Source: Minisyncoccota bacterium (GTDB lineage Bacteria > Patescibacteriota > Minisyncoccia > Phycocordibacterales > DATEUR01). Taken from it: a stretch of DNA of 47,887 bases. The first letter of the stretch is position 1. Every line of letters starts with the position of its first letter. The notes beneath the pieces were generated by a model that saw only the letters and a program-made list of their open reading frames with translations, was not told the DNA's origin and did not search any database. The stretch lies in assembly GCA_035583565.1 (NCBI GenBank), contig DATEUR010000005.1, forward strand, positions 1 to 47,887. Reading direction: 5' to 3'. The position numbers were made by a program, and so were the translations under genes. Positions 6,805 to 27,379 of this stretch are shown in pieces.

Positions 6805-7122
6805 TTATTTCATGTCTTTCTTGATATCTTCCATTGCTTCATCAACGGAATGACTGGCTCGCGGCCTTGGCGCGGCACCTTCCGGTTCCAAGATCTTGAG
6901 ATTGACGCGAGCATTGCCTTTGAGGCCAATGACGCGAAGAAGCATACGGATCGCTTTGGCGGTATTACCAGCGCGACCGATGACTTTGCCCATGTCTTCC
7001 GGATTAAGGGAAAGGGTGAGCAAGACGCCCATTTCGTCAACGGTCCGATTGACTTTCACATCACCCGGGTGGTCGACAAGATTTTTAATAATGTATTCTA
7101 GAAATTCTGTCGGTTTATCCAT
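6805..7122 (-). CDS. KH-domain RNA-binding protein (UPF0109/YlqC-like)
   Basis: 105 aa with DMGKVIGRAGNTAKAIRMLL (GXXG KH motif). Precedes trmD, as in rpsP-KH-rimM-trmD operons. Confidence 0.85.
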   Translation of the reverse strand: MDKPTEFLEYIIKNLVDHPGDVKVNRTVDEMGVLLTLSLNPEDMGKVIGRAGNTAKAIRMLLRVIGLKGNARVNLKILEPEGAAPRPRASHSVDEAMEDIKKDMK

Positions 7123-7228
7123 GTTACTTTTTAAAAATAACTAATAATCTGTCAGTCTCGACTGAAACTGTATTGACAATATAGCACGCTTTTATAAAAA
7201 GCGCAAGAAAAAATAAAATTACTTTTAT

Positions 7229-8347
7229 TCATTTCCGCGAATCTTCAAGCAAAGTGTTCAGGGTTTTATTTAATCGTTCATTGATTTTCTTTAAGTCTTC
7301 CGCAAGAATGCCGGCGAAAAGCCTGATACCGATCGCGCTTAAAAGAAAGGCCAGAAGACCGCTTAAAATAAGCCGGTTGGTTATTTTTCGAATGGGCGCA
7401 AAAACTTCATCGGCCCGCGCTTCCACGATAAGAGCCAAATTATGCTCTCTAAGGCACATTGAAGCGCCTAGAACATTGTAACCAGCGTAATTTTGGTATT
7501 CCTCGTCGATTCCCCTATTTTCTTCAAAACAAGCCCTGACCGGTAAAGTATCAACAGTTCTTGCTAAAACCGCTTCCCCGGCAAAACGCGACGGCGTGGT
7601 CATAAGTTTACTTTGATCAACAAGATAAATTTCCGCCGTTTTATAATAATCCATCAAGGCTTGGCCAGTTAAGGCGCCTTTATGTTCCTGAAAACGGCCG
7701 TTTAAAATATCGTTTAAATCATTGTTCTTCGCAAAGTGAACTAACATGACAGCATCAAGCGGAATGAGTTTGTCGAGAGCATCTTTTCGAGAAGAAAAAA
7801 TTCTGGTCGTGGTGTGCATCATCGATTCGCTATGCTCGTCTTCTTCACTAACAAAATTTTTCACAAAAGCTTTGCCAAAACCAGCGGCAATCGCTTGGCT
7901 AAAATGATGAGCATTAAGTTCTATTTCTTCTTTTTTTTCATTTACCCCGATCCTGTCTTTCCGTGATGAAGCGACCACTATGCCATTTTTATCCAAAATA
8001 TCAATAATTACCACCGAGGGATCATATTGCATTTTTTCTTCTCTGAGATAAATCCCCAATTCTTCGGCCGCCTGTTTTCTTTCGTCTTCGGCTCGCGATA
8101 AATCGGTGATTTTTTCCGTCATCATTCTGATGTAACTGTCAGAACTCCAGTCAATCGCTCTTATTTCCATTGATTCAATAAAGGCGAAAAAGGCGCCTTC
8201 AGACAGCTCGGCTAAGTTGCGGAAATTGGCGATTGTCTGATTTCTTTGAAAATTTGACAAGTAAAAATTGAGATAAACAATGAGGCCGATGACAATGACA
8301 AACGCCAGCCCCCCGACAAGAAAAAGCATTTTTGTTTTGAATTTCAT
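7229..8347 (-). CDS. Two-TM protein with a large extracytoplasmic sensor-like (Cache-like?) domain and no output domain
   Basis: 372 aa. N-terminal TM (LFLVGGLAFVIVIGLIVYL), a ~290-aa external region, a second TM (LILSGLLAFLLSAIGIRLFAGIL), then only ~25 aa (AEDLKKINERL...). The fold assignment is a guess. Confidence 0.55.
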   Translation of the reverse strand: MKFKTKMLFLVGGLAFVIVIGLIVYLNFYLSNFQRNQTIANFRNLAELSEGAFFAFIESMEIRAIDWSSDSYIRMMTEKITDLSRAEDERKQAAEELGIYLREEKMQYDPSVVIIDILDKNGIVVASSRKDRIGVNEKKEEIELNAHHFSQAIAAGFGKAFVKNFVSEEDEHSESMMHTTTRIFSSRKDALDKLIPLDAVMLVHFAKNNDLNDILNGRFQEHKGALTGQALMDYYKTAEIYLVDQSKLMTTPSRFAGEAVLARTVDTLPVRACFEENRGIDEEYQNYAGYNVLGASMCLREHNLALIVEARADEVFAPIRKITNRLILSGLLAFLLSAIGIRLFAGILAEDLKKINERLNKTLNTLLEDSRK

Positions 8348-8508
8348 GATTGTTTTATAATTGAATTAATTTTTAATATTACTAAAAGATTGGAGAGTAC
8401 CTCTTTTTCTTTTTCATTAAAGTCAACCGAGGAGCACAGATTGCTTTCCAGTTTTTCGGTCGCTTTTTCAACCGCTTCTTTGTCATATTTCAAAATAAAA
8501 ATTTTCAT
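8344..8508 (-). CDS. Small 54-aa protein (below the ORF-track cut-off)
   Basis: Hand translation gives MKIFILKYDKEAVEKATEKLESNLCSSVDFNEKEKEVLSNLLVILKINSIIKQS. The ATG is 1 nt after the upstream stop (8510), and its TGA overlaps the downstream ATG (ATGA at 8344-8347). Confidence 0.5.
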   Translation of the reverse strand: MKIFILKYDKEAVEKATEKLESNLCSSVDFNEKEKEVLSNLLVILKINSIIKQS

Positions 8509-8509
8509 A

Positions 8510-9406
8510 TTATTCAAAATATTTTCTGATAATCAATAAATTTTTATCGACCGGCTTAATCTTTTCTTTTGCTTCATCATTCGTCTGTCTTAAGCCGAAG
8601 CTTATTTTCTCGTCTAACTCCTGCTCATAACGAAGGATAAGAAGAGCGATAATTTTGGCCGGGTTCTTCGAAACATTAATAATACGACCGGTTTCATTAT
8701 CAATTGAAAAACCATCTATGTCGCCGGCGAACTCAATGGCTTTATCGCCAATCCGAAGCCGCATTTGAGCGATAATATCGCTTAATATTTCGTAAAAAAT
8801 CCGGTCATCTTTGGAAATTTCCGAATAGTCATGTGGCGCGATCCGGCCAGATTTTTGCCTGTTTCCAAACAAATGAAATAAATAAAACAAGATGACACCA
8901 AGAACTAGCGCAATACCAAAGATAATGGCAAGCTGACTTAAAAATAATCCGGCAAATTTGCGCTCAACCGTAAAAGAAAAACTTGAAACAGCCGGAACTT
9001 CCTGACCTTGATAAAGGATCTCGCTTGTCACTTTGTAGCGGCCAGGCTTCAAGTCATGAGGCAGTTGAAGGACTTTGACAAAAGAAGCGGTTGTTTCCAC
9101 GGCCACCGTTTCATTTTCGTTCAAAATCTCTTTTTTGTTTTGATCAAAAATTTTGTAATTAATAGCCACATCAACCCGCCGGCCGCCGCCGAAATTAAGG
9201 AGTTTGACGGCTACCGGTAAAAATTCACCGGGCGCTACTTTCGAAACAAAAGAGCCGCTACCGGTTTTGACTTCTGTCACTTTTTCAACGACAAAAGCAC
9301 TGGGGTTAGCGCTTTTGTCAGGCATTTCTTCCGAATTGTCAGCGCCAGCTAAAAGAAAGGGGGATAAGCCGAAAAGAAAAGAAAATAAAATTAATTTTTT
9401 AAACAT
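8510..9406 (-). CDS. Single-pass membrane protein: signal peptide, beta-sandwich-like ectodomain, TM, ~110-aa cytoplasmic domain
   Basis: 298 aa. Signal MFKKLILFSFLFGLSPFLLAGA; TM FAGLFLSQLAIIFGIALVLGVILFYLF. No recognised catalytic motif. Confidence 0.6.
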   Translation of the reverse strand: MFKKLILFSFLFGLSPFLLAGADNSEEMPDKSANPSAFVVEKVTEVKTGSGSFVSKVAPGEFLPVAVKLLNFGGGRRVDVAINYKIFDQNKKEILNENETVAVETTASFVKVLQLPHDLKPGRYKVTSEILYQGQEVPAVSSFSFTVERKFAGLFLSQLAIIFGIALVLGVILFYLFHLFGNRQKSGRIAPHDYSEISKDDRIFYEILSDIIAQMRLRIGDKAIEFAGDIDGFSIDNETGRIINVSKNPAKIIALLILRYEQELDEKISFGLRQTNDEAKEKIKPVDKNLLIIRKYFE

Positions 9407-9722
9407 TTTTCCGATGAGTTTTTTTATAAATTAAGGCATAAATAATCGAGATAAAAAGAATAAATCCTAAGGCAATGAAAGGCGCGGCTTTTCGGCTTTT
9501 TTCTTCCTTTTCAAGAGCTGGACCGATTTGGATGTCAAACAAAGGCGAGCTATCTTTCCCTGCCAAAATAATCGGCTCGCTGACTGATTCTTCCGCCAAA
9601 GATTTTTCTTTGGCCACCGGCGCCAGCGCCCGATTAGCCGACCAGCCGAACAAAACGACAAAAACAATCAGCATAGCCGGTAGACCATGGTGGAATAAGA
9701 CATGTTTGATAAGTTTAAACAC
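9399..9722 (-). CDS. Small bitopic membrane protein carrying the LFDIxI-EKE-TM-basic C-terminal module
   Basis: 107 aa. The C-terminus PLFDIQIGPALEKEEKSRKAAPFIALGFILFISIIYALIYKKTHRKNV parallels the cohesin-like protein C-terminus. Confidence 0.6.
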   Translation of the reverse strand: MFKLIKHVLFHHGLPAMLIVFVVLFGWSANRALAPVAKEKSLAEESVSEPIILAGKDSSPLFDIQIGPALEKEEKSRKAAPFIALGFILFISIIYALIYKKTHRKNV

Positions 9723-10449
9723 TTTTTTTTCTTATCAAATAAATGGCTAGACTTAAAAAAACAATTGCCGATAAAACAATGATCGCTAACGAGAATTTGT
9801 TTTCTTTTTCTATCGGCGCTTGTCTGATTTCAATATCAAACAAAGTGGGTTCTTCTGGAGATTTTTTCTCGAATTCGTCGGCAATTAAATCCCCTTCTTC
9901 AACAAGGGCTTCTGCGATTTTTTCAACCGGTTTTTTTACTTGCGTCTTTTTCACCGACGTTTTTTTAGCTTCGCTGATAATCACTTCGCTTTTAATCGGC
10001 AGTCCAGAGAGAATATTTTCTCCGAGAACGCCGTAAGAAAGCGAATTTTCGGAAATCGTAATCGCGTCGCGACCTGCTTTAAGCACTTTGAAGTTAATTA
10101 CGCCGAAAATAACCGTCTTATCCGTACCCTTGGGAAAGCCAGCCGTTTTAACGAGCGTCCCCTTATTATTATCAATCAAATCGTAACCGGGCTGATTTAA
10201 GGGTAGCCACTCATCACTTAATTTAAAAGATTTGACGGCTAAAAGATCAGCGGGAAAATTCATAACAAGTTTGGTTGTGTAATTTTTCACGCCTCGCGGA
10301 TCAAGCAAAACCACAAAATCCAAAGCACTGCCGGTTTGATCTCTAAAACTGGATGGGGTTACGGAAAAAGTGGCCGCGTCAGCGCCGCTTGAAAAAGAAA
10401 AAAGCAAGACGATAAAAGAAAAAAACAAAATTGTTTTAGATCTTTTCAT
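9715..10449 (-). CDS. Membrane-anchored cohesin-domain-like surface protein
   Basis: 244 aa with a signal peptide ending SSGADA. A beta-rich ~140-aa module (FSVTPSS...LDFVVLLD...VKSFKL...IFGVINFKVLKAGRDAITI) resembles cohesin domains. The C-terminus is PTLFDIEIRQAPIEKENKFS plus a TM plus RKKSV. Confidence 0.5.
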   Translation of the reverse strand: MKRSKTILFFSFIVLLFSFSSGADAATFSVTPSSFRDQTGSALDFVVLLDPRGVKNYTTKLVMNFPADLLAVKSFKLSDEWLPLNQPGYDLIDNNKGTLVKTAGFPKGTDKTVIFGVINFKVLKAGRDAITISENSLSYGVLGENILSGLPIKSEVIISEAKKTSVKKTQVKKPVEKIAEALVEEGDLIADEFEKKSPEEPTLFDIEIRQAPIEKENKFSLAIIVLSAIVFLSLAIYLIRKKSV

Positions 10450-10464
10450 AAAAATTATTTTAAA

Positions 10465-10797
10465 TTACTGCCAATAAACCATAAGCATGTTAAAATCAAG
10501 CAAATCGACTAAATTATCGCCGTTAATGTCGGCGAGGAGTCCGCTTCCCGCCCTTCCCCAATCGACCATCAGCGTGTTGAAATCAAGAGCGTTCACCTGA
10601 TTGTCGCCGGTAACATCAGCTGATGACGAGACACTCGGTGTCGGCGCGACACTAAGCGTCGGTGTCGGCGCTCGAAACCCTCCACTGCCACCGTAACCAA
10701 AAGCCGGCTTGGCGTGGCCCAAACCGGAATAGCCGAAAACCGCCAAAATAACAAGAATAAATATCAAGGGGCGTTTAACCCTCAAAAGGTCAATCAT
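10465..10797 (-). CDS. Secreted dockerin-only protein
   Basis: 110 aa: signal/TM, a Gly/Pro/Ser/Thr linker, then two EF-hand-like dockerin repeats, DVTGDNQVNALDFNTLM and DINGDNLVDLLDFNMLM. There is no cargo domain. Confidence 0.7.
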   Translation of the reverse strand: MIDLLRVKRPLIFILVILAVFGYSGLGHAKPAFGYGGSGGFRAPTPTLSVAPTPSVSSSADVTGDNQVNALDFNTLMVDWGRAGSGLLADINGDNLVDLLDFNMLMVYWQ

Positions 10798-10814
10798 AAA
10801 ATTGAAAAAAATAA

Positions 10815-10848
10815 ATAGAAAAAGCCCTCATCGTAATTCACGATAAGG
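10815..10848 (-). terminator. Terminator-like hairpin in the short leader of the dockerin operon
   Basis: The minus strand forms CCUUAUCGU-gaauu-ACGAUGAGG, fully paired only on this strand via a U-G pair, followed by GCUUUUUCUAUUUAUUUUUUU. It lies ~20 nt before the dockerin ATG. Confidence 0.45.
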
Positions 10849-10861
10849 ACGCAATATTTTC

Positions 10862-10889
10862 ATTATAAATCAAAGCAGATTTAGATCAA
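10862..10889 (-). promoter_or_regulatory. Candidate promoter of the dockerin/cohesin operon
   Basis: The minus strand reads TTGATC (10889-10884), a 16-nt spacer, then TATAAT (10867-10862). Confidence 0.45.
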
Positions 10890-10908: not shown

Positions 10909-12558
10909 TCACTGTTTGTAAAGAATAATGCTCTTCTTTGAAAACAAAGGTTTAAAATCAGTTAGAAAGGAATAAGAATAAGGATCGATATCTTTTATAT
11001 CCTGAAAATAAACAATATATTTGAAATCGGCTGGATCAGGGATAGGATCCAAGGATGGCAATTCCCCAAGCTCAATATTTTTGCTTGAAACGGCCTTGGG
11101 GCCAAAGAATACGCGACCTGGATTGCCTGTTATGAGATTATCGTTAAAACCAAGAGAAAAATAACCATGCCAAGGCAAAATAAGAATTTTGAAATCTTCT
11201 TTATCTTTTTCAATTATTTCTTTTGCTTCCTGCCATTCTTTTGGGTACCAGACGGATCGGAGCTGGCCCTGAAAGCCAAAAAGCATGGGGTAGGTGTAGA
11301 TCAAAGGTAAAGCAAAAACAACTGCCAGAATGTATTCTTTTTTAATTTTTTTTACTCTCTCCAAAATAAAATCAACCCCCAAAGGAATCAAATAAGCATA
11401 AATAAGAGCGATGGGGGCGACCCATTTGGCGCTATCTCGAAATCCTCGCCAAAAAGAAATATTTTCAAAAATCCAAAGATTGATAGATGAAAAAAAATCA
11501 CTCAAGCCAGTGGCAAAAACAAGGCTTAAACCGGCAAAACAAAATAAAATGAATCCCTGCCAACTGGAAAATGCCCCAAAAACAATAAGGACTAAAATTA
11601 AGAAAAGAAAAAACAGAAAAAATAATTTATTTTTCGGCCAAACAAAATTTTCCGCCCACGGCTCATCTTCGCCCCAATAACCGTATAAACTGAAAACATT
11701 GGTAAAAACTTTTAGTTTAGAATCACCGGCGGTTTGAAAAGTCTGCCAGTGAGCTTGATTAAAATTTTCAAAAACCGCTTGAGAGTTTTTGCTGACTAAG
11801 TAAGGTATTGTCCAATAACTGGAAAGAAAAAAGAAAACTAGGCCGGCTATAAAAGTTCTTAAAAGAATTTTTTTGAACAAAGACAAATTTTTTTGAAAAA
11901 GGACAACCACAATGCGACCAAACAAATAAATCGAGCTCAAAACGATCGCGATAGTAAGCATATGTAAAGAGAAAATACCAATGATGGTAAGGCAAAAAAC
12001 GAGTTTCAAAGGGATCAGGTACCTTTTTCGCGAGCCCTCAAGCCCAAGCCTCGCGAAAAAGGTACCTGATCCTTTTAACCCCTGGGGAAAGGTACCTGAC
12101 CCCTTAATTAAAAAATAAAGCACCGGCGGTAAAAGCGCATAACCGAAAAGAAAGAGCCAATGACCGGCCAAAAAACGCTCGTAAACAAATGGATTGATCG
12201 CGTAAAAGAGCGAGGTTAGATAATCCATTCCCCATTTTCTTTCAAAAAGGAAAAATTTAAACGGCAGATAAAAAAGCAAGAAAAACAAGGAAAAGAGGAT
12301 GGCTTTTTGAATAAGCCAAATCGGCAGAAAAATATCGGCAAACAAAAGAAGTTTCTCGAGGGGCAAGGCGTTTAAAAATTCTCCAGCGCTTTTGACAAAA
12401 TCAAATTCCGGCCCAAAAACCATATCTAAAGAAAACACATAGCCCGGTAAAAGCATTTGCCACAAAATAATAACTGCCCCAGCAACGGCAAAAATTATTC
12501 CGGAGTTCATGTTTTTTATATAATTAGATATTTTTTGAAGCATTTGATTTAAAGACAA
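10909..12558 (-). CDS. Large polytopic membrane protein, possible GT-C-type glycosyltransferase
   Basis: 549 aa with more than 10 predicted TM segments. Acidic first loop (SLDMVFGPEFDF) and a C-terminal soluble domain. The start is uncertain (alternative Met codons at 12543 and 12510). Function is inferred from context only. Confidence 0.5.
   Translation of the reverse strand: MSLNQMLQKISNYIKNMNSGIIFAVAGAVIILWQMLLPGYVFSLDMVFGPEFDFVKSAGEFLNALPLEKLLLFADIFLPIWLIQKAILFSLFFLLFYLPFKFFLFERKWGMDYLTSLFYAINPFVYERFLAGHWLFLFGYALLPPVLYFLIKGSGTFPQGLKGSGTFFARLGLEGSRKRYLIPLKLVFCLTIIGIFSLHMLTIAIVLSSIYLFGRIVVVLFQKNLSLFKKILLRTFIAGLVFFFLSSYWTIPYLVSKNSQAVFENFNQAHWQTFQTAGDSKLKVFTNVFSLYGYWGEDEPWAENFVWPKNKLFFLFFLFLILVLIVFGAFSSWQGFILFCFAGLSLVFATGLSDFFSSINLWIFENISFWRGFRDSAKWVAPIALIYAYLIPLGVDFILERVKKIKKEYILAVVFALPLIYTYPMLFGFQGQLRSVWYPKEWQEAKEIIEKDKEDFKILILPWHGYFSLGFNDNLITGNPGRVFFGPKAVSSKNIELGELPSLDPIPDPADFKYIVYFQDIKDIDPYSYSFLTDFKPLFSKKSIILYKQ
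12008..12105 (-). repeat. GC-rich palindromic insert lying in frame inside the CDS
   Basis: Perfect 23-bp inverted repeat ggatcaggtacctttttcgcgag (12012-12034) / ctcgcgaaaaaggtacctgatcc (12050-12072) with a 15-nt loop. A third partial arm gaaaggtacctgacccctt lies at 12087-12105. Encodes ...KGSGTFPQGLKGSGTFFARLGLEGSRKRYLIP... Confidence 0.8.
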
Positions 12559-12826
12559 TATCGGTTATGATTTTTTTGGCTTTTAATTTTGTTTTAATTT
12601 CCAATTTTTCTTTTATTTGACAATGCTTTTTATACTCAAAGACTTGCAAAATCGCAGCAAGAAAAAGAAGAGGAAAAGCGACAATTGAAAAGAAAGCGGC
12701 TGTTTTTTTACTCATAAATATGAAGATAAAACTGAAGAAAAAAAGAGCAGCCGAAATCAAAGCCAGAAATCGGCTGTTGAAAACATATTTGAGAATAATT
12801 GATTTCACTTGTTTAAGCTTTTTCAT
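12524..12826 (-). CDS. Small two-TM membrane protein
   Basis: 100 aa with two hydrophobic helices and a Lys-rich tail. Overlaps both neighbouring genes. Confidence 0.55.
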   Translation of the reverse strand: MKKLKQVKSIILKYVFNSRFLALISAALFFFSFIFIFMSKKTAAFFSIVAFPLLFLAAILQVFEYKKHCQIKEKLEIKTKLKAKKIITDIVFKSNASKNI

Positions 12827-14654
12827 TTTTCATTTTTCTCACGATAAAGGCCGAGAAAAAAAGAGCCAGCAAAGAAACAAGGAGCGCCAAGTAAAATAAT
12901 CTTTGCGGGAAATACTCCATCACAAGCTCCAGATCATATTTTCCATTTTCTTTCATTTCCAAGATTCCCTTCTCTTCCAAAATTTTCGGATCAATAATGA
13001 AGCCATTAGCATAACCATTTATCATAAAATGATCAGTCAGCCTCTTTTTTGAAAATCCATTTCTGGCGTAAAGCCGCCAATAATTGTCAAAAGATTCCAA
13101 AAAATTAAGCAAGAATGGCTCGTCAATATCGGTTATTTTAATTTTATATTTTGAAAAATTAATTTGTTTAACCTCATATTTGTTTTGATCGTCGTTAAAA
13201 AATTTTTCCGGGGCGAGAAAAATTCTTTCAGCCAGCGGCCAATTGAAAAGTTCGATTTTTATTCCCTTATATGAATTTTCCGTCAAATAATTCCCTTTGG
13301 AAAAAGAATAAAGATATATTCCGATGTTATTTTTTTTATCTTCAGGAACCTCAATCAATTTTTCAAATTTAGTCCAACCACTAGTGGTTTCCAGGTCTTC
13401 GCTATAAATTTCTTTGTTTAAACTTCCGTCGACTGATTTTGCCCAAATGGTGAATTTAGGATTATCGCCCGTTAGATGCTTGTATTCAAAACTCACTTTC
13501 ATCACGTTACCCTTGGTTTCAAACCATTTGTTATAGCAAACAAGCTCGTTCTTCGCTCTGAGTTTAAATTGGCCAGCCGATACTTGAGAAATTGTTTCTT
13601 GATCAGGCCGTGATTTATTGGTTCGGCAGAAATTTTGGGCAACATTCTCGTTTTCATCAAATAAGTAGATTGATGGATTTTCTAGATCGGAATATGAAAC
13701 ATCAATCGATCCTTCAAGATAAAATGGTCCGAACTTCTGAAATTTTCCGTCTTGTTTTTTACTGTCTTTTTTAAAAATATCTTCTTTCTCAGCAGTCAAA
13801 ACATTTATGTCGCGATAAAGATTTTCCGTCATGTAATTACCGGAAGAAGAAGAATAAAGATAAATCCCAATATTTTCCTCACCGCCTTCGGGAATATCAA
13901 ATAACTTTTCAAATTTATTCCAATCTTGTTTTGGTTTAAATTTTTCCGAATATATTTCTTGATTGATGGCTCCATCGGCTGATTTGCGCCAAAGAGTAAA
14001 TTTAGGATTATCGCCCGTTAGATGCTTGTATTCAAAACTCACTTTCATCACATTGCCTTTGCTTTCAAACCATTTGTTATAGCAAACAAGCTCGTTCTTC
14101 GCTCTGAGTTTAAATTGGCCAGCCGATACTTGAGAAATTGTTTCTTGATCAGGCCGTGATTTATTGGTTCGGCAAAGATTGGAAGGAAGGTTGTCAGTTC
14201 TGTCTTCCTCAAAAGCGACTGGTTGGAAGATGTCGCTAAGGCTTTCAAATTCTCTGGCTTTATTTTTAATCAGAAGACTATTATCTTTAACTGAAACATT
14301 AATATATGAATCAAAAGTATTATTAGGCGTGATCAAAAAATAATCAGCGGCTGGCAAATCAAGCCTTATTTTTCTTGATTCTCTTTTCGCCAAAAAATCA
14401 AGATTAAAAACGTTAAATAAATCGACTAGATTAAGGCCGTCTTTGAGGATATCTTTCTTAAAAACGAACGGCAGGTTTTGGCGGCCAATAAAAATGGCTT
14501 TTTTGGAAACATCCTCCAGTTTTTCAATTGGAATAGCGCCTTTGGAAATAAAAATTAAATCTTTCATATCCGCGCGCGCATAAGAAGCCACAAACAAAGC
14601 GCTAAATATAACTAATGACCATAAAATTTTTAGGTACTCCTTATTTGTCGACAT
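12813..14654 (-). CDS. Surface protein with a tandemly duplicated ~180-aa (CBM/beta-sandwich-like?) module and a C-terminal TM anchor
   Basis: 613 aa with an N-terminal signal anchor. Two copies of CRTNKSRPDQETISQVSAGQFKLRAKNELVCYNKWFE.KGNVMKVSFEYKHLTGDNPKF... The C-terminal TM LALLVSLLALFFSAFIV is followed by RKMKNEKA. Confidence 0.6.
   Translation of the reverse strand: MSTNKEYLKILWSLVIFSALFVASYARADMKDLIFISKGAIPIEKLEDVSKKAIFIGRQNLPFVFKKDILKDGLNLVDLFNVFNLDFLAKRESRKIRLDLPAADYFLITPNNTFDSYINVSVKDNSLLIKNKAREFESLSDIFQPVAFEEDRTDNLPSNLCRTNKSRPDQETISQVSAGQFKLRAKNELVCYNKWFESKGNVMKVSFEYKHLTGDNPKFTLWRKSADGAINQEIYSEKFKPKQDWNKFEKLFDIPEGGEENIGIYLYSSSSGNYMTENLYRDINVLTAEKEDIFKKDSKKQDGKFQKFGPFYLEGSIDVSYSDLENPSIYLFDENENVAQNFCRTNKSRPDQETISQVSAGQFKLRAKNELVCYNKWFETKGNVMKVSFEYKHLTGDNPKFTIWAKSVDGSLNKEIYSEDLETTSGWTKFEKLIEVPEDKKNNIGIYLYSFSKGNYLTENSYKGIKIELFNWPLAERIFLAPEKFFNDDQNKYEVKQINFSKYKIKITDIDEPFLLNFLESFDNYWRLYARNGFSKKRLTDHFMINGYANGFIIDPKILEEKGILEMKENGKYDLELVMEYFPQRLFYLALLVSLLALFFSAFIVRKMKNEKA
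13453..13628 (-). repeat. Intragenic direct repeat, copy 1 (176 bp)
   Basis: Matches 13999..14174 with 4 mismatches by hand count, including a ~111-bp perfect run. The offset is 546 bp (182 codons, in frame). Confidence 0.9.
13999..14174 (-). repeat. Intragenic direct repeat, copy 2 (176 bp)
   Basis: See copy 1. The flanking parts of the duplicated module are much more diverged. Confidence 0.9.
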
Positions 14655-15669
14655 TTTTTCTCAAGACTTTATTAATAATTCTCACGAAGGAAAAACTTTT
14701 GATGTAATTTTTCTTAAAAAATTCCGAGTCTCTAATTACTCTTGTTTTTTGGACAATTTTTCTTTTATCAAGAATGTGTTTTAAATGAAATAAATTATAA
14801 AAGACTGCCTTGTACAAAGAGATAAAAGATTCGAATCGGCCCCTGGTTAGGTAATAAAGCGAGTAAAAAAACATAAACACAAGATGAGCCGGCAAATACG
14901 CGGCCAAATTCTTTAGTTCATAATTTTTTATCATTGAGTCCATCCTGTTTCTTATAAAAAGATAAGTGCTATCAAGCGACCCGGCTTTTTTTCTTTTCTT
15001 TTTCTTTTGGAAGGAAGCACTGCCAAGATGATAAACTAAGGCCATGGGTAAATAATAAATTTCCGCGCCGGCAATTCTTGCCCGCCAGCAAAGATCTGTT
15101 TCCTCGTAAAGAAGAAAGTAATCTTCGTCAAAACCTTTTAATTTTTCAAAAATCTCTCGGCGCATAGCGAAAGCAGCGCCATTGGCGGTAAAAATTTTTC
15201 GTACATCTTCATATTGATCGTTGTCTTTTTCGTTATAACCGATAATGTAAGCTAGCCCTAGAGTGTCGGAATAATTGCCGGCGTTTTCTATAAAATCTTT
15301 TTCTTTTGCCATTTTTATTTTACATTGAGCAATCCCAGCGTCTTTATGATCATTAAAAAATTCATGAATTTTTACAAGACAATTTTTTTCAATAAAAGCG
15401 TCGCTGTTTAGAAAAAATACAACCTCTCCTTTGGTATATTCAAAAGCTTTGTTATTCCCGCCGGCAAATCCGAGATTTTTGCTACTTTTAATAATTTTAA
15501 TTTTCCTGTGGCCGGAATATTTTTCTTTGACAAATTCATAACTACCGTCGAGAGAATTATTATCGAAAAAGATTACTTCAAAATCCTGAAAATCGCCAAA
15601 AAGAACCGATTCAATGGTTTTTCCAATAAAATCACGGCCGTTATAATTCAAAATAATGATTGAGATCAT
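14641..15669 (-). CDS. Family 2 glycosyltransferase
   Basis: 342 aa. ISIIILNYNGRDFIGKTIESV...VIFFDNNSLDGS...FLNSDAF is GT2-typical (DxD-like NSD/DED). Confidence 0.85.
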   Translation of the reverse strand: MISIIILNYNGRDFIGKTIESVLFGDFQDFEVIFFDNNSLDGSYEFVKEKYSGHRKIKIIKSSKNLGFAGGNNKAFEYTKGEVVFFLNSDAFIEKNCLVKIHEFFNDHKDAGIAQCKIKMAKEKDFIENAGNYSDTLGLAYIIGYNEKDNDQYEDVRKIFTANGAAFAMRREIFEKLKGFDEDYFLLYEETDLCWRARIAGAEIYYLPMALVYHLGSASFQKKKKRKKAGSLDSTYLFIRNRMDSMIKNYELKNLAAYLPAHLVFMFFYSLYYLTRGRFESFISLYKAVFYNLFHLKHILDKRKIVQKTRVIRDSEFFKKNYIKSFSFVRIINKVLRKNVDK

Positions 15670-17465
15670 ATTATTTCGTAAATTAAATAATCTGGACTTT
15701 CTCGGAGGGCGCGCAAAGCGGAGCTTTTATTAAAAACTTGAATGAATTTTTCCGGCGTGCCAATGAATCCGGTCGGAGATTTTTCGTAATAATTTATCCC
15801 AATGGCCGACGTTTGGCCTATTCCCCTCAAAACAACAATGTATTTTATATTTATCACTTTTCTCAAAACAGCGAGTTTTGCGTCAAACTTATCCGGATCA
15901 TCAAATGATTTGACAAAATCGGCTTCGATCTCCATGGCATTTTTTGAAACGGCGGGAAAGACAAAATCGGCAATAGAGCCGGAGGATAAAACCATGTTGG
16001 TAAGCCCTTCCTGCGGAAGCCAGAGTGCCCTAAACTCGTTTCCTTTCGGCCTTCTTTCTTTAAAATAATCGTTGATCTCGGAAATATATGGGGGAAAAAC
16101 AACAAAATTATAATGTTTGCCCCCAATTTCGCTTAAAGATTGAGAATTTTTCGCTTCCGTAATTTTTGTCTGAAAATAAAAAGCCGGCGTCGCAAAAAGA
16201 ATAACCACAAGAAAAATAGTAATTGTTTTTGATTGGTATTTTCTAAGCAGTTTTTCGGCTAAAAAAGCTAGAAGAATAATGGTGGGAAAAACGATGAGGT
16301 ATGACCATTTGAGCGGCTGTTCAAAGGCTTTCAAAAAAAAGATTTTATTATAAAACCATTCTGCCAATTTAGTGAAATGAATTACAAGAAAAATCATAAA
16401 TGAATAAATAAGGACTGAATGAAAAGCAAAAATAAAAAGCTCTTTTTCCTTCAGTTTGAAATAAAAAGTACTTTGTTTCGACTTCGACTCGAACGCCGTG
16501 CGCAAGGGTACTCGCCCACGTGCTCCCCGCTCGTCGAAATAAAGTCTTCTGACGAAAAACACAAAAATAAATATCGGCAATAATAAATAAGCAGGAATAA
16601 AATAAAGAAAGTTCTGGTTTTTTATTCCAATCATAAATAAAGAAAGGAATGGTTGTGAGGCAATGGAAAAATATCGGCTGTACCAATCAGCTGAAAGAAA
16701 CAGTTTGAATACCTCTCCTTTTATATAAGTTACTCCTTCAAAACCGAAATTAAAAAACAAGAGAATTAAATTAAGCGAAATCGGCAGAATAAAAATGAGA
16801 TACAGTAAATATCCTAAAATGAAATAAATAATACCTTTAAAGACATTTTTTCTTTCTCCAAAGATAAAAACTGATAAAAATATAGGTGCAATTATTATAG
16901 GGATTGTAAAAATAAACTGAACATTCATCACCGTTCCTAGAGCGGAAAAAAGAGCAAAAAAGAATATGTTCTGGAAATTTGTTTCACTTTTGGCAATAAT
17001 CAAATACGCGTATAAAATTACGAGAGGCATAAACGCGTAAGAAAACATTAAAGCCGTCGCGCCAAACTGGTTTATAACAAAACCATTGAAGCCGTAAAAT
17101 AAAGAAAAAAGAATTTTTGTTCTTTCACTGAAAAGATCAAGTTTTTTAAAGAAAAAATAAGACGAAATCGAAGAAATGAGCCAGGGCAAAAAAAGAGCGG
17201 CTATTTGAGCAAGGTATGGCGAATGGGTAAAAAATAAAAAGATTGAATTGACAAATTCAATCGGGTGCATACTTGTGCGGACACCCAAAAGATTCGGGTA
17301 CCAAGCCGTATAAGAATAAGAAAGGGCTTCTTGCCAACTTGCCCGCGGCACATAAATATCCGTCCAGGCGGCTAAATCGCCGATATATAAGGCATAAAAA
17401 ACGGCTATGGCCGCGTAAAAGAAGGAAAAAATAATCAGAGCTCTTGCGCTATTATCCAGTCGCAT
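15666..17465 (-). CDS. Large polytopic membrane protein, possible GT-C-type glycosyltransferase or polymerase
   Basis: 599 aa with about 12 or more TM segments and a ~150-aa C-terminal soluble domain. The first loop is YIGDLAAWTDIYVP. Function is inferred from context. Confidence 0.5.
   Translation of the reverse strand: MRLDNSARALIIFSFFYAAIAVFYALYIGDLAAWTDIYVPRASWQEALSYSYTAWYPNLLGVRTSMHPIEFVNSIFLFFTHSPYLAQIAALFLPWLISSISSYFFFKKLDLFSERTKILFSLFYGFNGFVINQFGATALMFSYAFMPLVILYAYLIIAKSETNFQNIFFFALFSALGTVMNVQFIFTIPIIIAPIFLSVFIFGERKNVFKGIIYFILGYLLYLIFILPISLNLILLFFNFGFEGVTYIKGEVFKLFLSADWYSRYFSIASQPFLSLFMIGIKNQNFLYFIPAYLLLPIFIFVFFVRRLYFDERGARGRVPLRTAFESKSKQSTFYFKLKEKELFIFAFHSVLIYSFMIFLVIHFTKLAEWFYNKIFFLKAFEQPLKWSYLIVFPTIILLAFLAEKLLRKYQSKTITIFLVVILFATPAFYFQTKITEAKNSQSLSEIGGKHYNFVVFPPYISEINDYFKERRPKGNEFRALWLPQEGLTNMVLSSGSIADFVFPAVSKNAMEIEADFVKSFDDPDKFDAKLAVLRKVINIKYIVVLRGIGQTSAIGINYYEKSPTGFIGTPEKFIQVFNKSSALRALRESPDYLIYEII
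16476..16539 (-). repeat. GC-rich in-frame insert flanked by a short inverted repeat
   Basis: tttcgac (16476-16482) ... gtcgaaa (16533-16539) bracket a ~50-nt GC-rich core inside an AT-rich gene. Encodes ...FDERGARGRVPLRTAFESKS... Confidence 0.55.
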
Positions 17466-18411
17466 ATATTTCTTGTTTCAATGTTAAAAATTCATTTGCC
17501 TCACTTGGCGGCCAAATTTTTTTGTAATGTATACTGCTTGCAAAAGGCACAATTATTTTCGGGTCAAATTTGTGTTTAAATAAAGCAAAAGTAGGAGTGT
17601 CTACAAATTGCGCGAGATGCATAACGGAAGAATCTATCACAATATTAAGAGATGAATTTTTTATTAAATAATAAATATCGATAATATTGAAGCCATATTT
17701 AGCGGTATAAAAAACATTTGGAAGACTTAATCCCCCACCTTCGTTTCTGTTCTCATCGTCTGCCATTTTGGCATCCATGACAAGAACAAACTTCTTGTCT
17801 GGAAATTCTTTCGCCAGTCTTTCTATCTGCGCCTTGCTTATGTTCTTTTTTTCATAAAAACTTTTCCGGTGAATAGCGATGTAATTTTTCTTTTCCAATT
17901 TATTTTCCAATTTATTTTCCAATAAAAATTTTTCAAGCTTGTTTTGATTTTTTTCTTTTAGAAAATTATCAAGTTTAAACTTAGTAAATTTATTTATTGA
18001 TTTAATACCAAGCTCTCTGTAAATCTTGGTTAATTTATGCCTATCAAAAAAAACGGACAAAAACTTTTCCAAAAAATTAGGCAGGAGGTTGATTGTTAAA
18101 AATCTGAGATTGTATTTTTTGACTCCATTCTTTTCTATAATTTCTTTCGATAATTTTTTAAAATGCCAATAGTCTTTCAGGAAAAAGGCGACTGTGTTCC
18201 AATATCTTGGCCTGTTATTTGACTTGATAACATAGATACTTTCCACAAATATAATATTCTTCCAGAAATCATAAGACCCGTTATTGAGTAAAACGAGACT
18301 TACTCTTTCCCCTCTTTCCTTATAAAAATCATAAAGAGCCGGAAAGGCAAGGAGATTGTCACCGAGCCCGTGCAGGAGCATTATTATATTTTTCTTGGAG
18401 TTCCTTGTCAT
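17452..18411 (-). CDS. GT9-like (heptosyltransferase-family) glycosyltransferase
   Basis: 319 aa. N-terminal IIMLLHGLGDNLLAFPAL and C-terminal VIDSSVMHLAQFVDTPTFALF resemble the GT9 signature blocks. Confidence 0.6.
   Translation of the reverse strand: MTRNSKKNIIMLLHGLGDNLLAFPALYDFYKERGERVSLVLLNNGSYDFWKNIIFVESIYVIKSNNRPRYWNTVAFFLKDYWHFKKLSKEIIEKNGVKKYNLRFLTINLLPNFLEKFLSVFFDRHKLTKIYRELGIKSINKFTKFKLDNFLKEKNQNKLEKFLLENKLENKLEKKNYIAIHRKSFYEKKNISKAQIERLAKEFPDKKFVLVMDAKMADDENRNEGGGLSLPNVFYTAKYGFNIIDIYYLIKNSSLNIVIDSSVMHLAQFVDTPTFALFKHKFDPKIIVPFASSIHYKKIWPPSEANEFLTLKQEIYATG
17891..17926 (-). repeat. 12-nt tandem repeat (2 perfect copies plus 1 imperfect) inside the GT9-like gene
   Basis: ttttccaattta x2, then ttttccaataaa. 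Encodes LENKLENKLEKK. Confidence 0.85.
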
Positions 18412-19103
18412 TTAATTTTCTTTAATTTTACAAATATATTCATAAACCCGTTTTCTTTTTTGTACTCATCATCAATTTTTTTATTGAAAAAATCGGCAAA
18501 AACAGATTTTCTTCTTAAAACCCATTTTGAAAAATACATATTCAAAAGCTCGAGTAAATTCCAAAAGCCGCCTTTTACTTTTATAGAGAGAATTTCAAAA
18601 CCGCCTTCTTTTTCAAAGATTTCTAGATCTTTTTTACTGTAGTGTCTATGCCCTATTAACCACCAAGCCGGATCAAACACCATGCTTGGAAAAGATTTAT
18701 ATGGCGTAGACAAGTAAAATATTCCGCCTTTTCTTAAAACTCTAGAAACTTCGCTAAACATTTTATTTTCAGTATTTTTCGGAATGTGCTCCAGTACTTC
18801 AAAAGACACGGCCGTGTCAAGAGATTCATTTCCAAATGGAATATCCAAAGCGCTGCCGACTTTAAACAAATATTTATCATCTTTAAGATTTTCTTTTGCC
18901 GTTTTTAAATCATCTTCGGTTATTTCTATTCCGATCATTTTCTTCCCTCCCCTATTAAAAAAATTGAGTTCGGCCCACCCAAAACCGCAGCCGATATTCA
19001 ATATTTCTTTACCCTCTATATCCTCATCGGCAACAAATCTGGTAGAAAAAAGCGTTCGGCCATGCAACTTATCTGTTGGTTTTTGTTCAATAATGTTTTT
19101 CAT
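18408..19103 (-). CDS. Class I SAM-dependent methyltransferase
   Basis: 231 aa with motif I ILNIGCGFGW and VSFEVLEHIP...LRKGGIFYLSTP. Confidence 0.85.
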   Translation of the reverse strand: MKNIIEQKPTDKLHGRTLFSTRFVADEDIEGKEILNIGCGFGWAELNFFNRGGKKMIGIEITEDDLKTAKENLKDDKYLFKVGSALDIPFGNESLDTAVSFEVLEHIPKNTENKMFSEVSRVLRKGGIFYLSTPYKSFPSMVFDPAWWLIGHRHYSKKDLEIFEKEGGFEILSIKVKGGFWNLLELLNMYFSKWVLRRKSVFADFFNKKIDDEYKKENGFMNIFVKLKKIK

Positions 19104-19106
19104 AAT

Positions 19107-22761: not shown

Positions 22762-22762
22762 A

Positions 22763-27366: not shown

Positions 27367-27379
27367 AAAATATAAAAAT

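What the first reader, a model, noticed from the sequence alone, without database searches (positions are those of the whole stretch)
7229..10889. Six-gene, tightly coupled surface operon: cargo-less dockerin, anchored cohesin-like protein, three membrane proteins and an output-less sensor-like protein
The operon starts from a candidate promoter at 10862-10889. Its genes run in this order:
1. Dockerin-only protein.
2. Cohesin-like anchored protein.
3. 107-aa anchor protein.
4. Ig-like single-pass protein with a cytoplasmic domain.
5. 54-aa protein.
6. Two-TM protein whose large ectodomain is followed by only ~25 cytoplasmic residues.

Junctions are 15 nt, -8, -8, 1 nt and -4, which implies co-translation.

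Cohesin-dockerin pairs normally assemble enzymes (cellulosomes). Here the dockerin carries nothing, and the partners are membrane proteins with cytoplasmic tails. In an episymbiotic, CPR-like organism this could be a minimal Ca2+-dependent surface assembly, adhesion or signalling module. I know of no described function for it.
Basis: partly seen in the sequence, partly recalled or inferred. Interest (0 to 1): 0.68.

Follow-up and report, generated by a model that had tools for sequence, protein, structure and literature searches.

The report
Cohesin-dockerin surface cluster, reduced form
Six tightly packed genes in this ultra-small (Patescibacteria) bacterium encode a real dockerin-cohesin pair attached to a conserved membrane "hub" protein; relatives wire the same cluster to signalling proteins, but here the signalling parts are cut down, and no function has been described for any version.

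Summary
Six minus-strand ORFs (7229-10797) have the stated sizes and junctions. g1 is a dockerin by Pfam. g2 is a cohesin by predicted fold and family profile. g3 is an anchor-only protein. g4 is an Ig-like single-pass protein with a cytoplasmic domain. g6 is a two-TM sensor with a 23-residue tail.

Three corrections:
- g5 (54 aa) is not a membrane protein. It is the N-terminal stub of the response regulator that follows g4 homologues in 35 of 41 evaluable species.
- g6 is a truncated member of a dCache-HAMP-coiled-coil family.
- The proposed promoter is followed by a strong terminator-like hairpin before the g1 ATG, so it is doubtful.

The order is conserved. Dockerin-cohesin-(g3)-g4 recurs in 13 of 48 species-level genome loci and four metagenome loci. 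In three species the cohesin is fused to g4. Every cohesin next to g4 carries an LFD[IV] motif before its C-terminal TM, and this anchor is almost exclusive to genes just upstream of g4.

The best reading is a Patescibacteria-wide hub-and-antenna surface module, normally coupled to a CheY-like receiver and PAS kinases, present here in a reduced but selected form (dN/dS about 0.2). It is not a cellulosome. Function and the dockerin-cohesin interaction remain inferred. I found no published description.

The parts
10862..10889 (-). Promoter-like hexamers TTGATC-16-TATAAT; function doubtful
   Evidence: Consensus scan, 10 of 12 matches. Such matches are common in this AT-rich region, and a terminator-like hairpin follows directly.
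10800..10850 (-). 12-bp hairpin (10850-10824) plus U-rich run. Either the intrinsic terminator of the upstream polysaccharide-cluster gene or a leader structure of the operon.
   Evidence: Terminator scan. RNA fold of the 114-nt intergenic region: -25.2 kcal/mol, z = -3.37, 0 of 200 shuffles as stable. No Rfam family.
10465..10797 (-). g1: secreted dockerin-only protein. It has a signal-peptide-like N-terminus, a Gly/Pro/Thr/Ser linker and a dockerin module (residues 61-110, nt 10468-10617). The module has two 12-residue Ca-loop repeats, DVTGDNQVNALD and DINGDNLVDLLD.
   Evidence: Pfam Dockerin_1 34.7 bits against cut-off 22.9, two stretches. Hydropathy. A cargo-less orthologue sits at the same position in L013. 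A dockerin gene lies directly upstream of every cohesin gene whose upstream flank is available.
9715..10449 (-). g2: signal peptide, one cohesin domain (about residues 26-160, nt 9970-10374), a low-complexity linker, the LFDIEI motif (residues 203-208, nt 9826-9843), a C-terminal TM and a basic tail.
   Evidence: AF2 model with 13-sequence alignment. Foldseek PDB top hits are cohesins 6kgc, 2vo8, 1g1k, 4uyp, 2xdh. Six of 13 homologues hit PF00963. The protein itself has no Pfam hit.
9399..9722 (-). g3: anchor-only protein. It has an N-terminal hydrophobic segment, a spacer of about 35 aa, the LFDIQI motif (residues 61-66, nt 9525-9542), a C-terminal TM and a basic tail.
   Evidence: Its tail resembles the g2 tail (E 2e-4). 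Orthologues occupy the same position in L006/L015 (127 aa) and L013 (114 aa), with 21 invariant columns.
8510..9406 (-). g4: the hub. It has a signal peptide, an Ig-like beta-sandwich ectodomain (about 45-150), a TM (159-177) and a conserved alpha/beta cytoplasmic domain (about 188-298).
   Evidence: 346 homologues at 41-65% identity among those aligned. AF2 mean pLDDT 82.5. Foldseek gives only generic Ig-like/CARDB/Wzt-CBD matches. The cytoplasmic-domain profile finds 126 representative clusters and no named family. dN/dS against L009 is 0.17-0.20.
8344..8508 (-). g5: 54-aa soluble stub of the cluster's response regulator (beta1-alpha1-beta2-alpha2-beta3), with Lys at the phospho-acceptor position.
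   Evidence: It sits at the position held by a receiver gene in 35 of 41 evaluable species loci. It aligns to positions 1-41 of a profile of syntenic receivers: 10.8 bits for the window copy, 21.9 bits for the L009 orthologue (alignment). No TM. No Pfam Response_reg hit.
7229..8347 (-). g6: two-TM sensor with an ectodomain of about 300 aa that is distantly dCache-like. It ends 23 residues after TM2, so it lacks the HAMP domain and the coiled-coil tail of its family.
   Evidence: 64 homologues, typically about 475 aa with PF00672. Sixteen of 19 aligned members have HAMP and 7 of 19 hit dCache_1. Alignment A3 shows the truncation point. dN/dS against the 74%-identical, equally short L009 orthologue is 0.18-0.22.
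7185..7205 (-). Terminator-like hairpin 24 nt after the g6 stop codon; probable end of the transcription unit.
   Evidence: Consensus scan. The next gene (khpA-like, 6805-7122) is unrelated housekeeping.

Best explanation
The six genes are a reduced copy of a gene cluster that is widespread in Patescibacteria and, as far as I could find, undescribed. It is a modular 'hub-and-antenna' surface complex.

The hub is g4: an Ig-like ectodomain, one TM and a conserved cytoplasmic domain.

Extracellular modules reach the hub in three interchangeable ways:
(i) direct fusion to its N-terminus through an LFD[IV] segment;
(ii) as separate proteins that end in LFD[IV], a 12-18-residue spacer, a TM and a basic tail, encoded immediately upstream (g2 and g3 here);
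(iii) indirectly, by a secreted dockerin protein (g1) that binds the cohesin of g2, presumably with Ca2+ in its two EF-hand-like loops.

In most species the hub gene is followed by a single-domain CheY-like receiver, often without the phospho-acceptor Asp, and by PAS or histidine-kinase genes. The hub's cytoplasmic domain is therefore most likely the docking site of that receiver, linking a cytoplasmic phosphorelay to the surface module.

In this window every accessory part is minimal. The dockerin carries no cargo. g3 is an anchor with no ectodomain. The receiver is cut to a 54-aa stub that cannot be phosphorylated. The following dCache-type sensor has lost HAMP and its output tail. Here the complex most likely acts as a constitutive structural or adhesive surface assembly, with g6 as an accessory ligand-binding subunit rather than a transmitter.

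Shown: domain identities, topology, synteny, fusions, the motif-to-hub association and purifying selection.
Inferred: dockerin-cohesin binding, the LFD[IV] anchor contacting the hub, the receiver binding the hub, and any adhesion or signalling role.
For: Domain identity:
- Dockerin by Pfam above cut-off.
- Cohesin by fold and family profile.

Dockerin-cohesin adjacency:
- A dockerin gene lies directly upstream of the cohesin gene in every locus with flank, including loci without g4 (L001, L003).

Survey of 48 species-level genome loci holding a g4 homologue:
- A receiver lies immediately downstream in 35 of 41 evaluable loci.
- Dockerin-cohesin lies immediately upstream in 13.

Fusions:
- The cohesin is fused to the g4 N-terminus in L019, L026 and L038. 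The LFD[IV] segment is retained and the cohesin's own TM is dropped.
- The 'YAWS..GWINF' repeat domain is dockerin cargo in L019, L029, L045 and L047, and is fused directly to g4 in L052 and L056.

The LFD[IV] anchor:
- Every cohesin encoded separately next to g4 carries LFD[IV] before its C-terminal TM, and the three g4-fused cohesins keep an [LI]FD[VIL] segment. The two cohesins not next to g4 lack it.
- Of 1630 ORFs of at least 70 aa, 34 carry the motif plus TM plus basic tail. Thirty-two (33 counting L058) end just upstream of g4.
- 31 of 48 loci have the anchor, separate or fused.

Closest relatives:
- L013 is the closest full cluster and has the same order: cargo-less dockerin, cohesin, g3, g4, then an intact 131-aa receiver.
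- L061 has cohesin, g4, receiver, a HAMP protein, a HAMP-less g6 homologue, a receiver and a PAS kinase.
- g5 aligns to the receiver N-terminus.

Selection:
- g4 and g6 are under purifying selection against L009 (dN/dS 0.17-0.22).
Against: - No interaction was predicted or measured: no multimer modelling was available.
- g2 itself has no Pfam cohesin hit.
- The window copy of g5 scores only 10.8 bits against the receiver profile. Its dN/dS is 0.42 by NG86 and unstable by ML, so its status as a functional peptide is open.
- The hub's cytoplasmic domain matches no known domain, so receiver docking is a guess from adjacency.
- Dockerin-cohesin co-divergence beyond phylogeny is not significant once one deep clade is removed (partial r 0.19, p = 0.13).
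- 17 of 48 hub loci show no LFD[IV] partner. Some of these are UGA-recoded lineages that my ORF calling breaks.
- There is no intact receiver, HAMP or kinase anywhere in the 48-kb window, so any signalling role in this organism is unsupported.
Confidence: 0.55

Rival explanations
1. A minimal cellulosome-like system: the cohesin anchors dockerin-bearing enzymes, encoded elsewhere, to degrade polysaccharide.
For: Cohesin and dockerin are the defining cellulosome modules. A CBM_4_9-containing protein lies 2.4 kb upstream at 12813-14654.
Against: There is one cohesin per protein and no scaffoldin. None of the seven dockerin proteins scanned from related loci carries a catalytic domain; they hold fn3, DUF5018 repeats or no Pfam domain. 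g1 has no cargo at all. The only dockerin match among all window ORFs is g1. The neighbouring genes are biosynthetic glycosyltransferases, not hydrolases.
Confidence: 0.03
2. A decaying relic: after loss of the receiver and the HAMP output, the cluster is on its way to pseudogenisation and does nothing.
For: g5 is a receiver stub with Lys at the phospho-site. g6 lacks HAMP and its tail. g1 and g3 lack ectodomains. There is no receiver or kinase in the window.
Against: All six ORFs are intact with tight or overlapping junctions. g4 and g6 have dN/dS of about 0.2 against L009. g5 keeps exactly 54 codons with no indel at dS of about 0.7. A HAMP-less g6 also occurs in L061, at 47% identity, inside an otherwise complete cluster. 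The cargo-less dockerin and the anchor-only g3 are conserved in L013 alongside an intact receiver.
Confidence: 0.12
3. LFD[IV] plus TM plus basic tail is a C-terminal sorting signal, in the style of LPXTG or PEP-CTERM. It would be cleaved by a dedicated enzyme that attaches g2 and g3 to the wall or a lipid. g4 would be a co-factor or co-substrate rather than a hub.
For: The tripartite layout of motif, hydrophobic helix and basic tail resembles known sorting signals. The motif is highly specific to one neighbourhood.
Against: The motif lies 12-18 residues before the TM rather than abutting it. In five fused proteins the same motif sits internally, directly N-terminal to the g4 Ig domain, with no TM after it. 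g4 has one TM and no recognisable protease or transpeptidase domain. No sortase-like gene was seen in the loci inspected; this was not searched systematically.
Confidence: 0.15
4. The module serves the cell's own surface glycan: it binds, measures or organises the polysaccharide made by the adjacent biosynthesis cluster.
For: The operon lies directly downstream of, and co-oriented with, a 14-kb polysaccharide cluster. In L009 a flippase-like membrane protein follows g6. The g4 ectodomain's nearest folds include the Wzt O-antigen-binding domain and CBMs.
Against: The Foldseek matches are generic Ig-like folds with TM normalised to the query of about 0.3. Polysaccharide genes are not consistent neighbours in the other loci. 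A terminator-like hairpin separates the two gene sets.
Confidence: 0.1

Closest known systems
Type I cohesin-dockerin pairs of cellulosomes (e.g. C. thermocellum, C. cellulolyticum, C. acetobutylicum CaCohA2-Doc0917; PDB 6kgc, 1g1k, 2ccl)
   Same: The dockerin has two duplicated Ca-loop and helix segments and passes the Pfam threshold. The cohesin is a beta-sandwich whose best structural matches are these proteins. The cohesin is cell-anchored and the dockerin is at the C-terminus of a secreted protein.
   Different: There is a single cohesin, no scaffoldin, no CBM and no enzyme on any dockerin examined. Anchoring is by a C-terminal TM with an LFD[IV] motif rather than SLH or sortase. The genes are genetically coupled to a hub membrane protein and, in relatives, to a receiver and PAS kinases.
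Non-cellulosomal cohesin/dockerin modules (e.g. Archaeoglobus fulgidus cohesin 2xdh; Clostridium perfringens glycoside-hydrolase cohesin-like modules 2vo8, 2jh2, 2w1n)
   Same: The cohesin fold occurs outside plant cell-wall degradation, and these entries are among the top structural hits (ranks 4, 17, 19, 27). From my own knowledge, such modules have long been known to be scattered through bacteria and archaea, mostly with unknown roles.
   Different: The C. perfringens modules are part of glycoside hydrolases (entry titles). Here the partners carry no enzyme and sit in a conserved operon with a transmembrane hub. I found no paper describing such a cluster in Patescibacteria or CPR.
Single-domain CheY-like response regulators acting on a membrane-associated target (CheY-FliM type logic), and pseudo-receivers
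   Same: In relatives the gene after the hub is a receiver-only protein of about 130 aa, next to PAS or HisKA-HATPase genes. Several copies lack the phospho-acceptor Asp.
   Different: The target, the g4 cytoplasmic domain, is only inferred from adjacency. In this window just the first 50 residues of the receiver remain, so this logic cannot operate as such.
dCache_1-HAMP transmembrane sensors (chemoreceptor or kinase input modules)
   Same: g6 has the TM-ectodomain-TM layout. It belongs by strong sequence similarity (E down to 1e-103) to a family whose members hit dCache_1 and HAMP.
   Different: The window protein stops 23 residues after TM2. The family's output is not a kinase or MCP domain but a short coiled coil ending in ELEKFxxLTxGRELKMxELKKE, which is absent here.

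Membership tests
Dockerin type I (PF00404), g1 | Profile match above the curated threshold | tested here: met
   34.7 bits against cut-off 22.9, E 2e-8, two stretches.
Dockerin type I (PF00404), g1 | Two tandem segments of about 22 residues, each with a 12-residue EF-hand-like loop having D/N/T at positions 1, 3, 5, 9 and 12, followed by a helix | tested here: met
   Read from the sequence: D61-V-T-G-D-N-Q-V-N-A-L-D72 and D90-I-N-G-D-N-L-V-D-L-L-D101, each followed by FNxLMVxW.
Dockerin type I (PF00404), g1 | Ca2+-dependent binding to a cognate cohesin | not testable with these tools
   No multimer prediction or experiment was possible. Indirect support only: dockerin-cohesin gene adjacency in all loci with flank. 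The mirror-tree test was inconclusive.
Cohesin (PF00963), g2 | Profile match of the protein itself | tested here: not met
   No Pfam family at E <= 1. No PDB sequence match.
Cohesin (PF00963), g2 | Profile match at family level | tested here: met
   Six of 13 aligned homologues hit PF00963, best E 1.3e-6. Precomputed PF00963 on P0003-P0006.
Cohesin (PF00963), g2 | Cohesin-type beta-sandwich (jelly-roll) fold | tested here: met
   The AF2 model has pLDDT above 90 over most of about residues 40-160. Foldseek ranks 1-25 are all cohesins, E 2e-8 to 2e-5, TM normalised to target 0.5-0.79.
Cellulosome | Scaffoldin with several cohesins and a CBM, plus dockerin-borne carbohydrate-active enzymes | tested here: not met
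   One cohesin per protein. g1 has no cargo. Seven related dockerin proteins carry fn3, DUF5018 or nothing. No second dockerin in the window.
Response regulator receiver (PF00072), g5 | Full (beta-alpha)5 domain with acidic pocket and phospho-acceptor Asp | tested here: not met
   Only 54 aa. No Pfam hit. It aligns to positions 1-41 of the syntenic receivers (10.8 bits for the window, 21.9 bits for L009). Lys replaces the phospho-acceptor Asp and YD/NN replaces the DD pair. It is a remnant, not a member.
dCache_1-HAMP sensor family, g6 | TM - extracellular Cache-like domain - TM | tested here: met
   TMs at 8-26 and about 328-349. Homology to family members at E down to 1e-103. Seven of 19 members hit dCache_1, though the window protein itself does not.
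dCache_1-HAMP sensor family, g6 | Cytoplasmic HAMP domain and output segment | tested here: not met
   The alignment shows the window protein and its L009 orthologue ending where HAMP begins. Sixteen of 19 relatives have HAMP. Only about 106 nt separate the stop codon from the next gene.
C-terminal sorting signals (LPXTG / PEP-CTERM type), tails of g2 and g3 | Short motif directly followed by a TM helix and basic tail, with a cognate processing enzyme | tested here: inconclusive
   Motif, TM and basic tail are present. However, there is a 12-18-residue spacer, the motif is also internal in fusion proteins, and no candidate enzyme was seen in the inspected loci. No systematic search was done.

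The most novel reading that the evidence does not exclude
Patescibacteria possess a previously unrecognised transmembrane hub system. It comprises the g4 family, its LFD[IV] plug-in anchors, and a CheY-like receiver or pseudo-receiver with PAS kinases. In this system a cohesin-dockerin pair is used to mount exchangeable extracellular 'antenna' domains on a receptor, not to assemble enzymes. That would be a modular surface sensing or regulated-adhesion device of episymbiotic bacteria. The window holds a stripped-down, phosphorelay-independent version.
Probability: 0.35. Interest if true: 0.8.

Novelty: new variant of a known kind. Interest (0 to 1): 0.62.

Why it matters
How ultra-small, host-dependent Patescibacteria recognise and hold on to partners is poorly understood, and most of their surface proteins have no annotation.

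This cluster gives a concrete, widely conserved candidate. It has a known high-affinity protein-protein connector (cohesin-dockerin), a conserved membrane hub, and, in most lineages, a link to two-component signalling.

Several features make the hypothesis directly testable with recombinant ectodomains and two-hybrid assays, even without cultivating the organisms:
- the gene fusions;
- the LFD[IV] anchor, which is almost exclusive to this neighbourhood;
- the natural series of variants, from full to stripped-down.

It would also extend cohesin-dockerin biology from enzyme assembly to receptor assembly.

Tried and rejected
- Pfam and NCBIfam on the six proteins: only the dockerin is recognised. 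The TIGR02895 sigma-I hit (17.5 bits against cut-off 185) and the Alph_Pro_TM hit (16.6 against 24.5) are below threshold and were dismissed.
- PDB sequence searches with g2, the cohesin-family profile, the g4 profile and the g4 cytoplasmic-domain profile: nothing at or below E = 0.2.
- Foldseek of the g4 model: only generic Ig-like folds, with no match for the cytoplasmic domain.
- Exhaustive profile search with the g4 cytoplasmic domain: 126 representative clusters. The distant ones are unannotated 92-96-aa proteins with no Pfam domain, so there is no functional lead.
- Direct comparison of g6 with the sensor downstream of the L004 cluster: no homology.
- Rfam on the window and on the leader region: no family. 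The trpB motif scored 26 bits against a gathering score of 59 and was dismissed.
- Mirror-tree test of dockerin-cohesin co-evolution controlling for g4: significant overall (partial r 0.46, p = 2e-4), but driven by one deep clade (0.19, p = 0.13 without it). Not used as evidence.
- ML dN/dS for the 54-codon g5 was unstable (1.08 against 0.42 by NG86) and is treated as inconclusive.
- The 75-aa 'short receivers' in L035, L041 and L044 were considered as further stubs and rejected. They continue in frame after a stop codon, consistent with UGA recoding.
- Literature searches found no description of the cluster.

Full report
**Observation**

The window is a contig of a Candidatus Paceibacterota MAG: the g2, g4 and g6 products are identical to NCBI entries VJ103_00525, VJ103_00515 and VJ103_00505.
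- g1 10465-10797, 110 aa
- g2 9715-10449, 244 aa
- g3 9399-9722, 107 aa, GTG start
- g4 8510-9406, 298 aa
- g5 8344-8508, 54 aa from ATG
- g6 7229-8347, 372 aa

The junctions recompute to 15 nt, -8, -8, +1 and -4. Hydropathy confirms the stated topologies, with one exception: g5 has no hydrophobic segment (maximum KD19 of 0.92), so it is not a membrane protein.

A terminator-like hairpin follows g6 at 7205-7185. Downstream lie khpA-like, trmD and rpoB genes. Upstream, on the same strand, lies a polysaccharide-biosynthesis cluster of about 14 kb.

**Promoter**

TTGATC-16-TATAAT at 10889-10862 exists (10 of 12). The same scan finds 22 sites where shuffles give 10.0 +/- 3.6, and another 10/12 site lies inside g6 on the other strand.

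A 12-bp hairpin with a U-run occupies 10850-10824, between the -10 box and the g1 ATG. The 114-nt intergenic region folds at -25.2 kcal/mol, z = -3.4. This looks like the terminator of the upstream gene, or else a leader structure. No Rfam family matches. The promoter call is therefore unproven.

**Dockerin and cohesin**

g1 passes the Pfam dockerin threshold (34.7 against 22.9 bits). Its two Ca-loop repeats, DVTGDNQVNALD and DINGDNLVDLLD, are intact.

g2 has no Pfam or PDB sequence hit of its own. Its 12 homologues form a tight family: signal peptide, a conserved domain of about 135 aa, a linker and a C-terminal TM. Six of the 13 aligned sequences hit Pfam Cohesin.

The AF2 model has pLDDT above 90 over most of the domain. 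Its first 25 Foldseek PDB hits are all cohesins: E 2e-8 to 2e-5, TM normalised to the target up to 0.79. They include cellulosomal, C. perfringens and A. fulgidus cohesins.

**Synteny**

Contigs carrying g2 homologues show a dockerin gene directly upstream in every case with flank: L001/L002, L003 and L004.

g4 belongs to a large, well-conserved family: 346 hits, 41-65% identity among the 40 aligned. Four metagenome loci (L004, L006, L007, L008) read dockerin, cohesin, (g3), g4, single-domain response regulator, PAS or histidine kinase.

A scan of one genome per species returned 48 loci from many Patescibacteria lineages. I scored them with HMMs built here:
- A receiver gene lies immediately downstream of g4 in 35 of 41 evaluable loci.
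- Dockerin-cohesin lies immediately upstream in 13.

The closest complete relative is L013 (Nomurabacteria; g4 65% and cohesin 47% identical). It has the same order as the window: cargo-less dockerin, cohesin, g3, g4. An intact 131-aa receiver then follows.

**Evidence that the cohesin belongs with g4**

1. In L019, L026 and L038 the cohesin is fused to the N-terminus of g4. The fusion keeps an LFD[IV]-type segment and drops the cohesin's own TM.
2. Every cohesin encoded separately next to g4 has LFD[IV] 12-18 residues before its C-terminal TM. The two cohesins not next to g4 (L001, L003) lack it.
3. g3 is just this anchor without an ectodomain, and it is conserved in L006/L015 and L013.
4. 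Of 1630 ORFs of at least 70 aa in all non-duplicate loci, 34 carry motif plus TM plus basic tail. Thirty-two end within 1.2 kb upstream of g4 on the same strand. A 33rd overlaps the g4 start call.
5. 31 of 48 species loci have the anchor, either separate or fused.
6. The 'YAWS..GWINF' repeat domain is dockerin cargo in four loci and is fused directly to g4 in two others.

Together these say that g4 is a hub carrying interchangeable ectodomains, attached in cis, through the anchor, or through cohesin-dockerin.

**The hub itself**

The AF2 model (mean pLDDT 82.5) shows an Ig-like sandwich, a long TM helix and a compact alpha/beta cytoplasmic domain. Structural matches are generic Ig-like folds.

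A profile of the cytoplasmic domain finds only g4-family proteins and, weakly, unannotated 92-96-aa proteins. It finds nothing in the PDB. The domain's function is unknown. A role as the receiver's partner is inferred only from the near-constant adjacency.

**g5**

g5 sits where the receiver sits in relatives. It starts with the same MKI[LF]I[LV] and aligns to positions 1-41 of a profile of four syntenic receivers. The score is 21.9 bits for the 54-aa orthologue in L009 and 10.8 bits for the window copy.

In the alignment it covers beta1 through beta3, with Lys at the phospho-acceptor position, and then stops. It is a receiver stub.

Several full-length cluster receivers also lack the Asp: Ala in L004 and L006, Glu in L013 and L061. 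Phosphorylation may therefore be dispensable for the partnership in general.

**g6**

Its 64 homologues are typically about 475 aa with HAMP. Sixteen of 19 aligned members hit HAMP and 7 hit dCache_1. They end in a coiled coil with the motif ELEKFxxLTxGRELKMxELKKE. The same motif closes the PAS proteins of about 190 aa that follow the receiver in canonical clusters.

The window protein and its 74%-identical orthologue in L009 stop just after TM2.

Full-length homologues usually sit with kinases, receivers and type IV pilus genes (L011, L012, L062). L061, however, has cohesin, g4, receiver, a HAMP protein, a HAMP-less g6 homologue, a receiver and a PAS kinase. This is a plausible ancestral layout. 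A deletion from mid-receiver to the start of g6 would give the window's g4-g5-g6 arrangement (inference).

**Is it decaying?**

Against L009, dN/dS is 0.17-0.20 for g4 and 0.18-0.22 for g6. g5 keeps 54 codons without indels, at NG86 dN/dS 0.42; the ML estimate is unstable. The reduced form is therefore maintained, at least for g4 and g6.

No receiver, HAMP or second dockerin is encoded anywhere else in the 48-kb window.

**Comparison with known systems**

It works like a cohesin-dockerin anchoring pair, but it is not a cellulosome. There is one cohesin, no scaffoldin and no CBM. None of the seven related dockerin proteins scanned carries an enzyme.

It is closest to the scattered non-cellulosomal cohesin-dockerin modules of unknown role. 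It is novel in its conserved coupling to a transmembrane hub and two-component genes. Full-text searches found no description of such a cluster in Patescibacteria or CPR.

**Verdict**

The module identities and conservation are right. The promoter, the nature of g5 and the 'output-less by design' view of g6 need correction.
- The mechanism (dockerin binds cohesin, the anchor binds the hub, the hub binds the receiver) is inferred. It is directly testable.

Noticed in passing
window 10800-10850 (-): Strong intrinsic-terminator-like hairpin (12 bp plus U-run) lying between the proposed promoter and the g1 start codon. It could be the terminator of the upstream polysaccharide gene or a regulatory leader.
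   Followed up: partly
window 10909-24965 (-): Co-oriented surface-polysaccharide biosynthesis cluster: three GT2, a GT4, a GT9-like, two methyltransferases, a flippase, a CBM_4_9 protein and large membrane proteins. One of the membrane proteins has a sub-threshold MmpA-like hit.
   Followed up: partly
L006 8414-8962; L019 8562-9170; L022 5906-6499; the C-terminal columns of alignment A3: A conserved C-terminal motif, ELEKFxxLTxGRELKM[IV]ELKKE, closes both the HAMP sensors of the g6 family and the small PAS proteins that follow the receiver in canonical clusters. It looks like an unnamed shared output module of Patescibacteria signalling proteins.
   Followed up: no
L004 8157-8558; L006 7985-8380; L013 7801-8196; L061 1603-2016: The receiver encoded after the hub often lacks the phospho-acceptor Asp (Ala or Glu instead), so it may be a pseudo-receiver.
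   Followed up: partly
L035 7709-8098; L041 858-1085; L044 7712-7939: Receiver ORFs are interrupted by an in-frame stop after '...KDSW'. In L035, the one locus where I saw the downstream ORF, the sequence then continues in frame as 'VPVIILT...'. This is consistent with UGA-recoded (code-25-like) lineages. The hub ORFs in these loci are also shortened by table-11 calling.
   Followed up: partly
P0295-P0321 (stand-alone proteins of about 90-115 aa); P0314 (324-aa multi-TM protein): Weak but consistent matches of the hub's cytoplasmic-domain profile to an unannotated small-protein family with no Pfam domain. By eye, the segment seems to recur in P0314.
   Followed up: partly
L019 5784-6482; L029 5525-6205; L045 5410-6156; L047 5359-6135; L052 4692-6020; L056 5924-7414: A 'YAWS..GWINF' repeat domain with no Pfam match is either the cargo of the dockerin protein or fused directly to the hub.
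   Followed up: partly
window g1 residues 31-40; L006, L013, L018, L050, L053 dockerin proteins: A conserved 'AFGYGGGGG' segment directly follows the N-terminal hydrophobic region of the dockerin proteins. It is probably a signal-peptidase site followed by a Gly-rich linker.
   Followed up: no
L011, L012, L062: Full-length g6-family HAMP sensors sit beside PAS kinases, receiver genes (two in L011 and L012, one in L062) and pilin genes. L011 and L062 also carry type IV pilus assembly genes (T2SSE, plus T2SSF or PilM). This hints at a pilus-linked signalling module in Patescibacteria.
   Followed up: no
window 25195-28723 (-): A copper-type P-type ATPase with an HMA domain lies next to an HMA-DsbD-cupredoxin fusion protein.
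   Followed up: no
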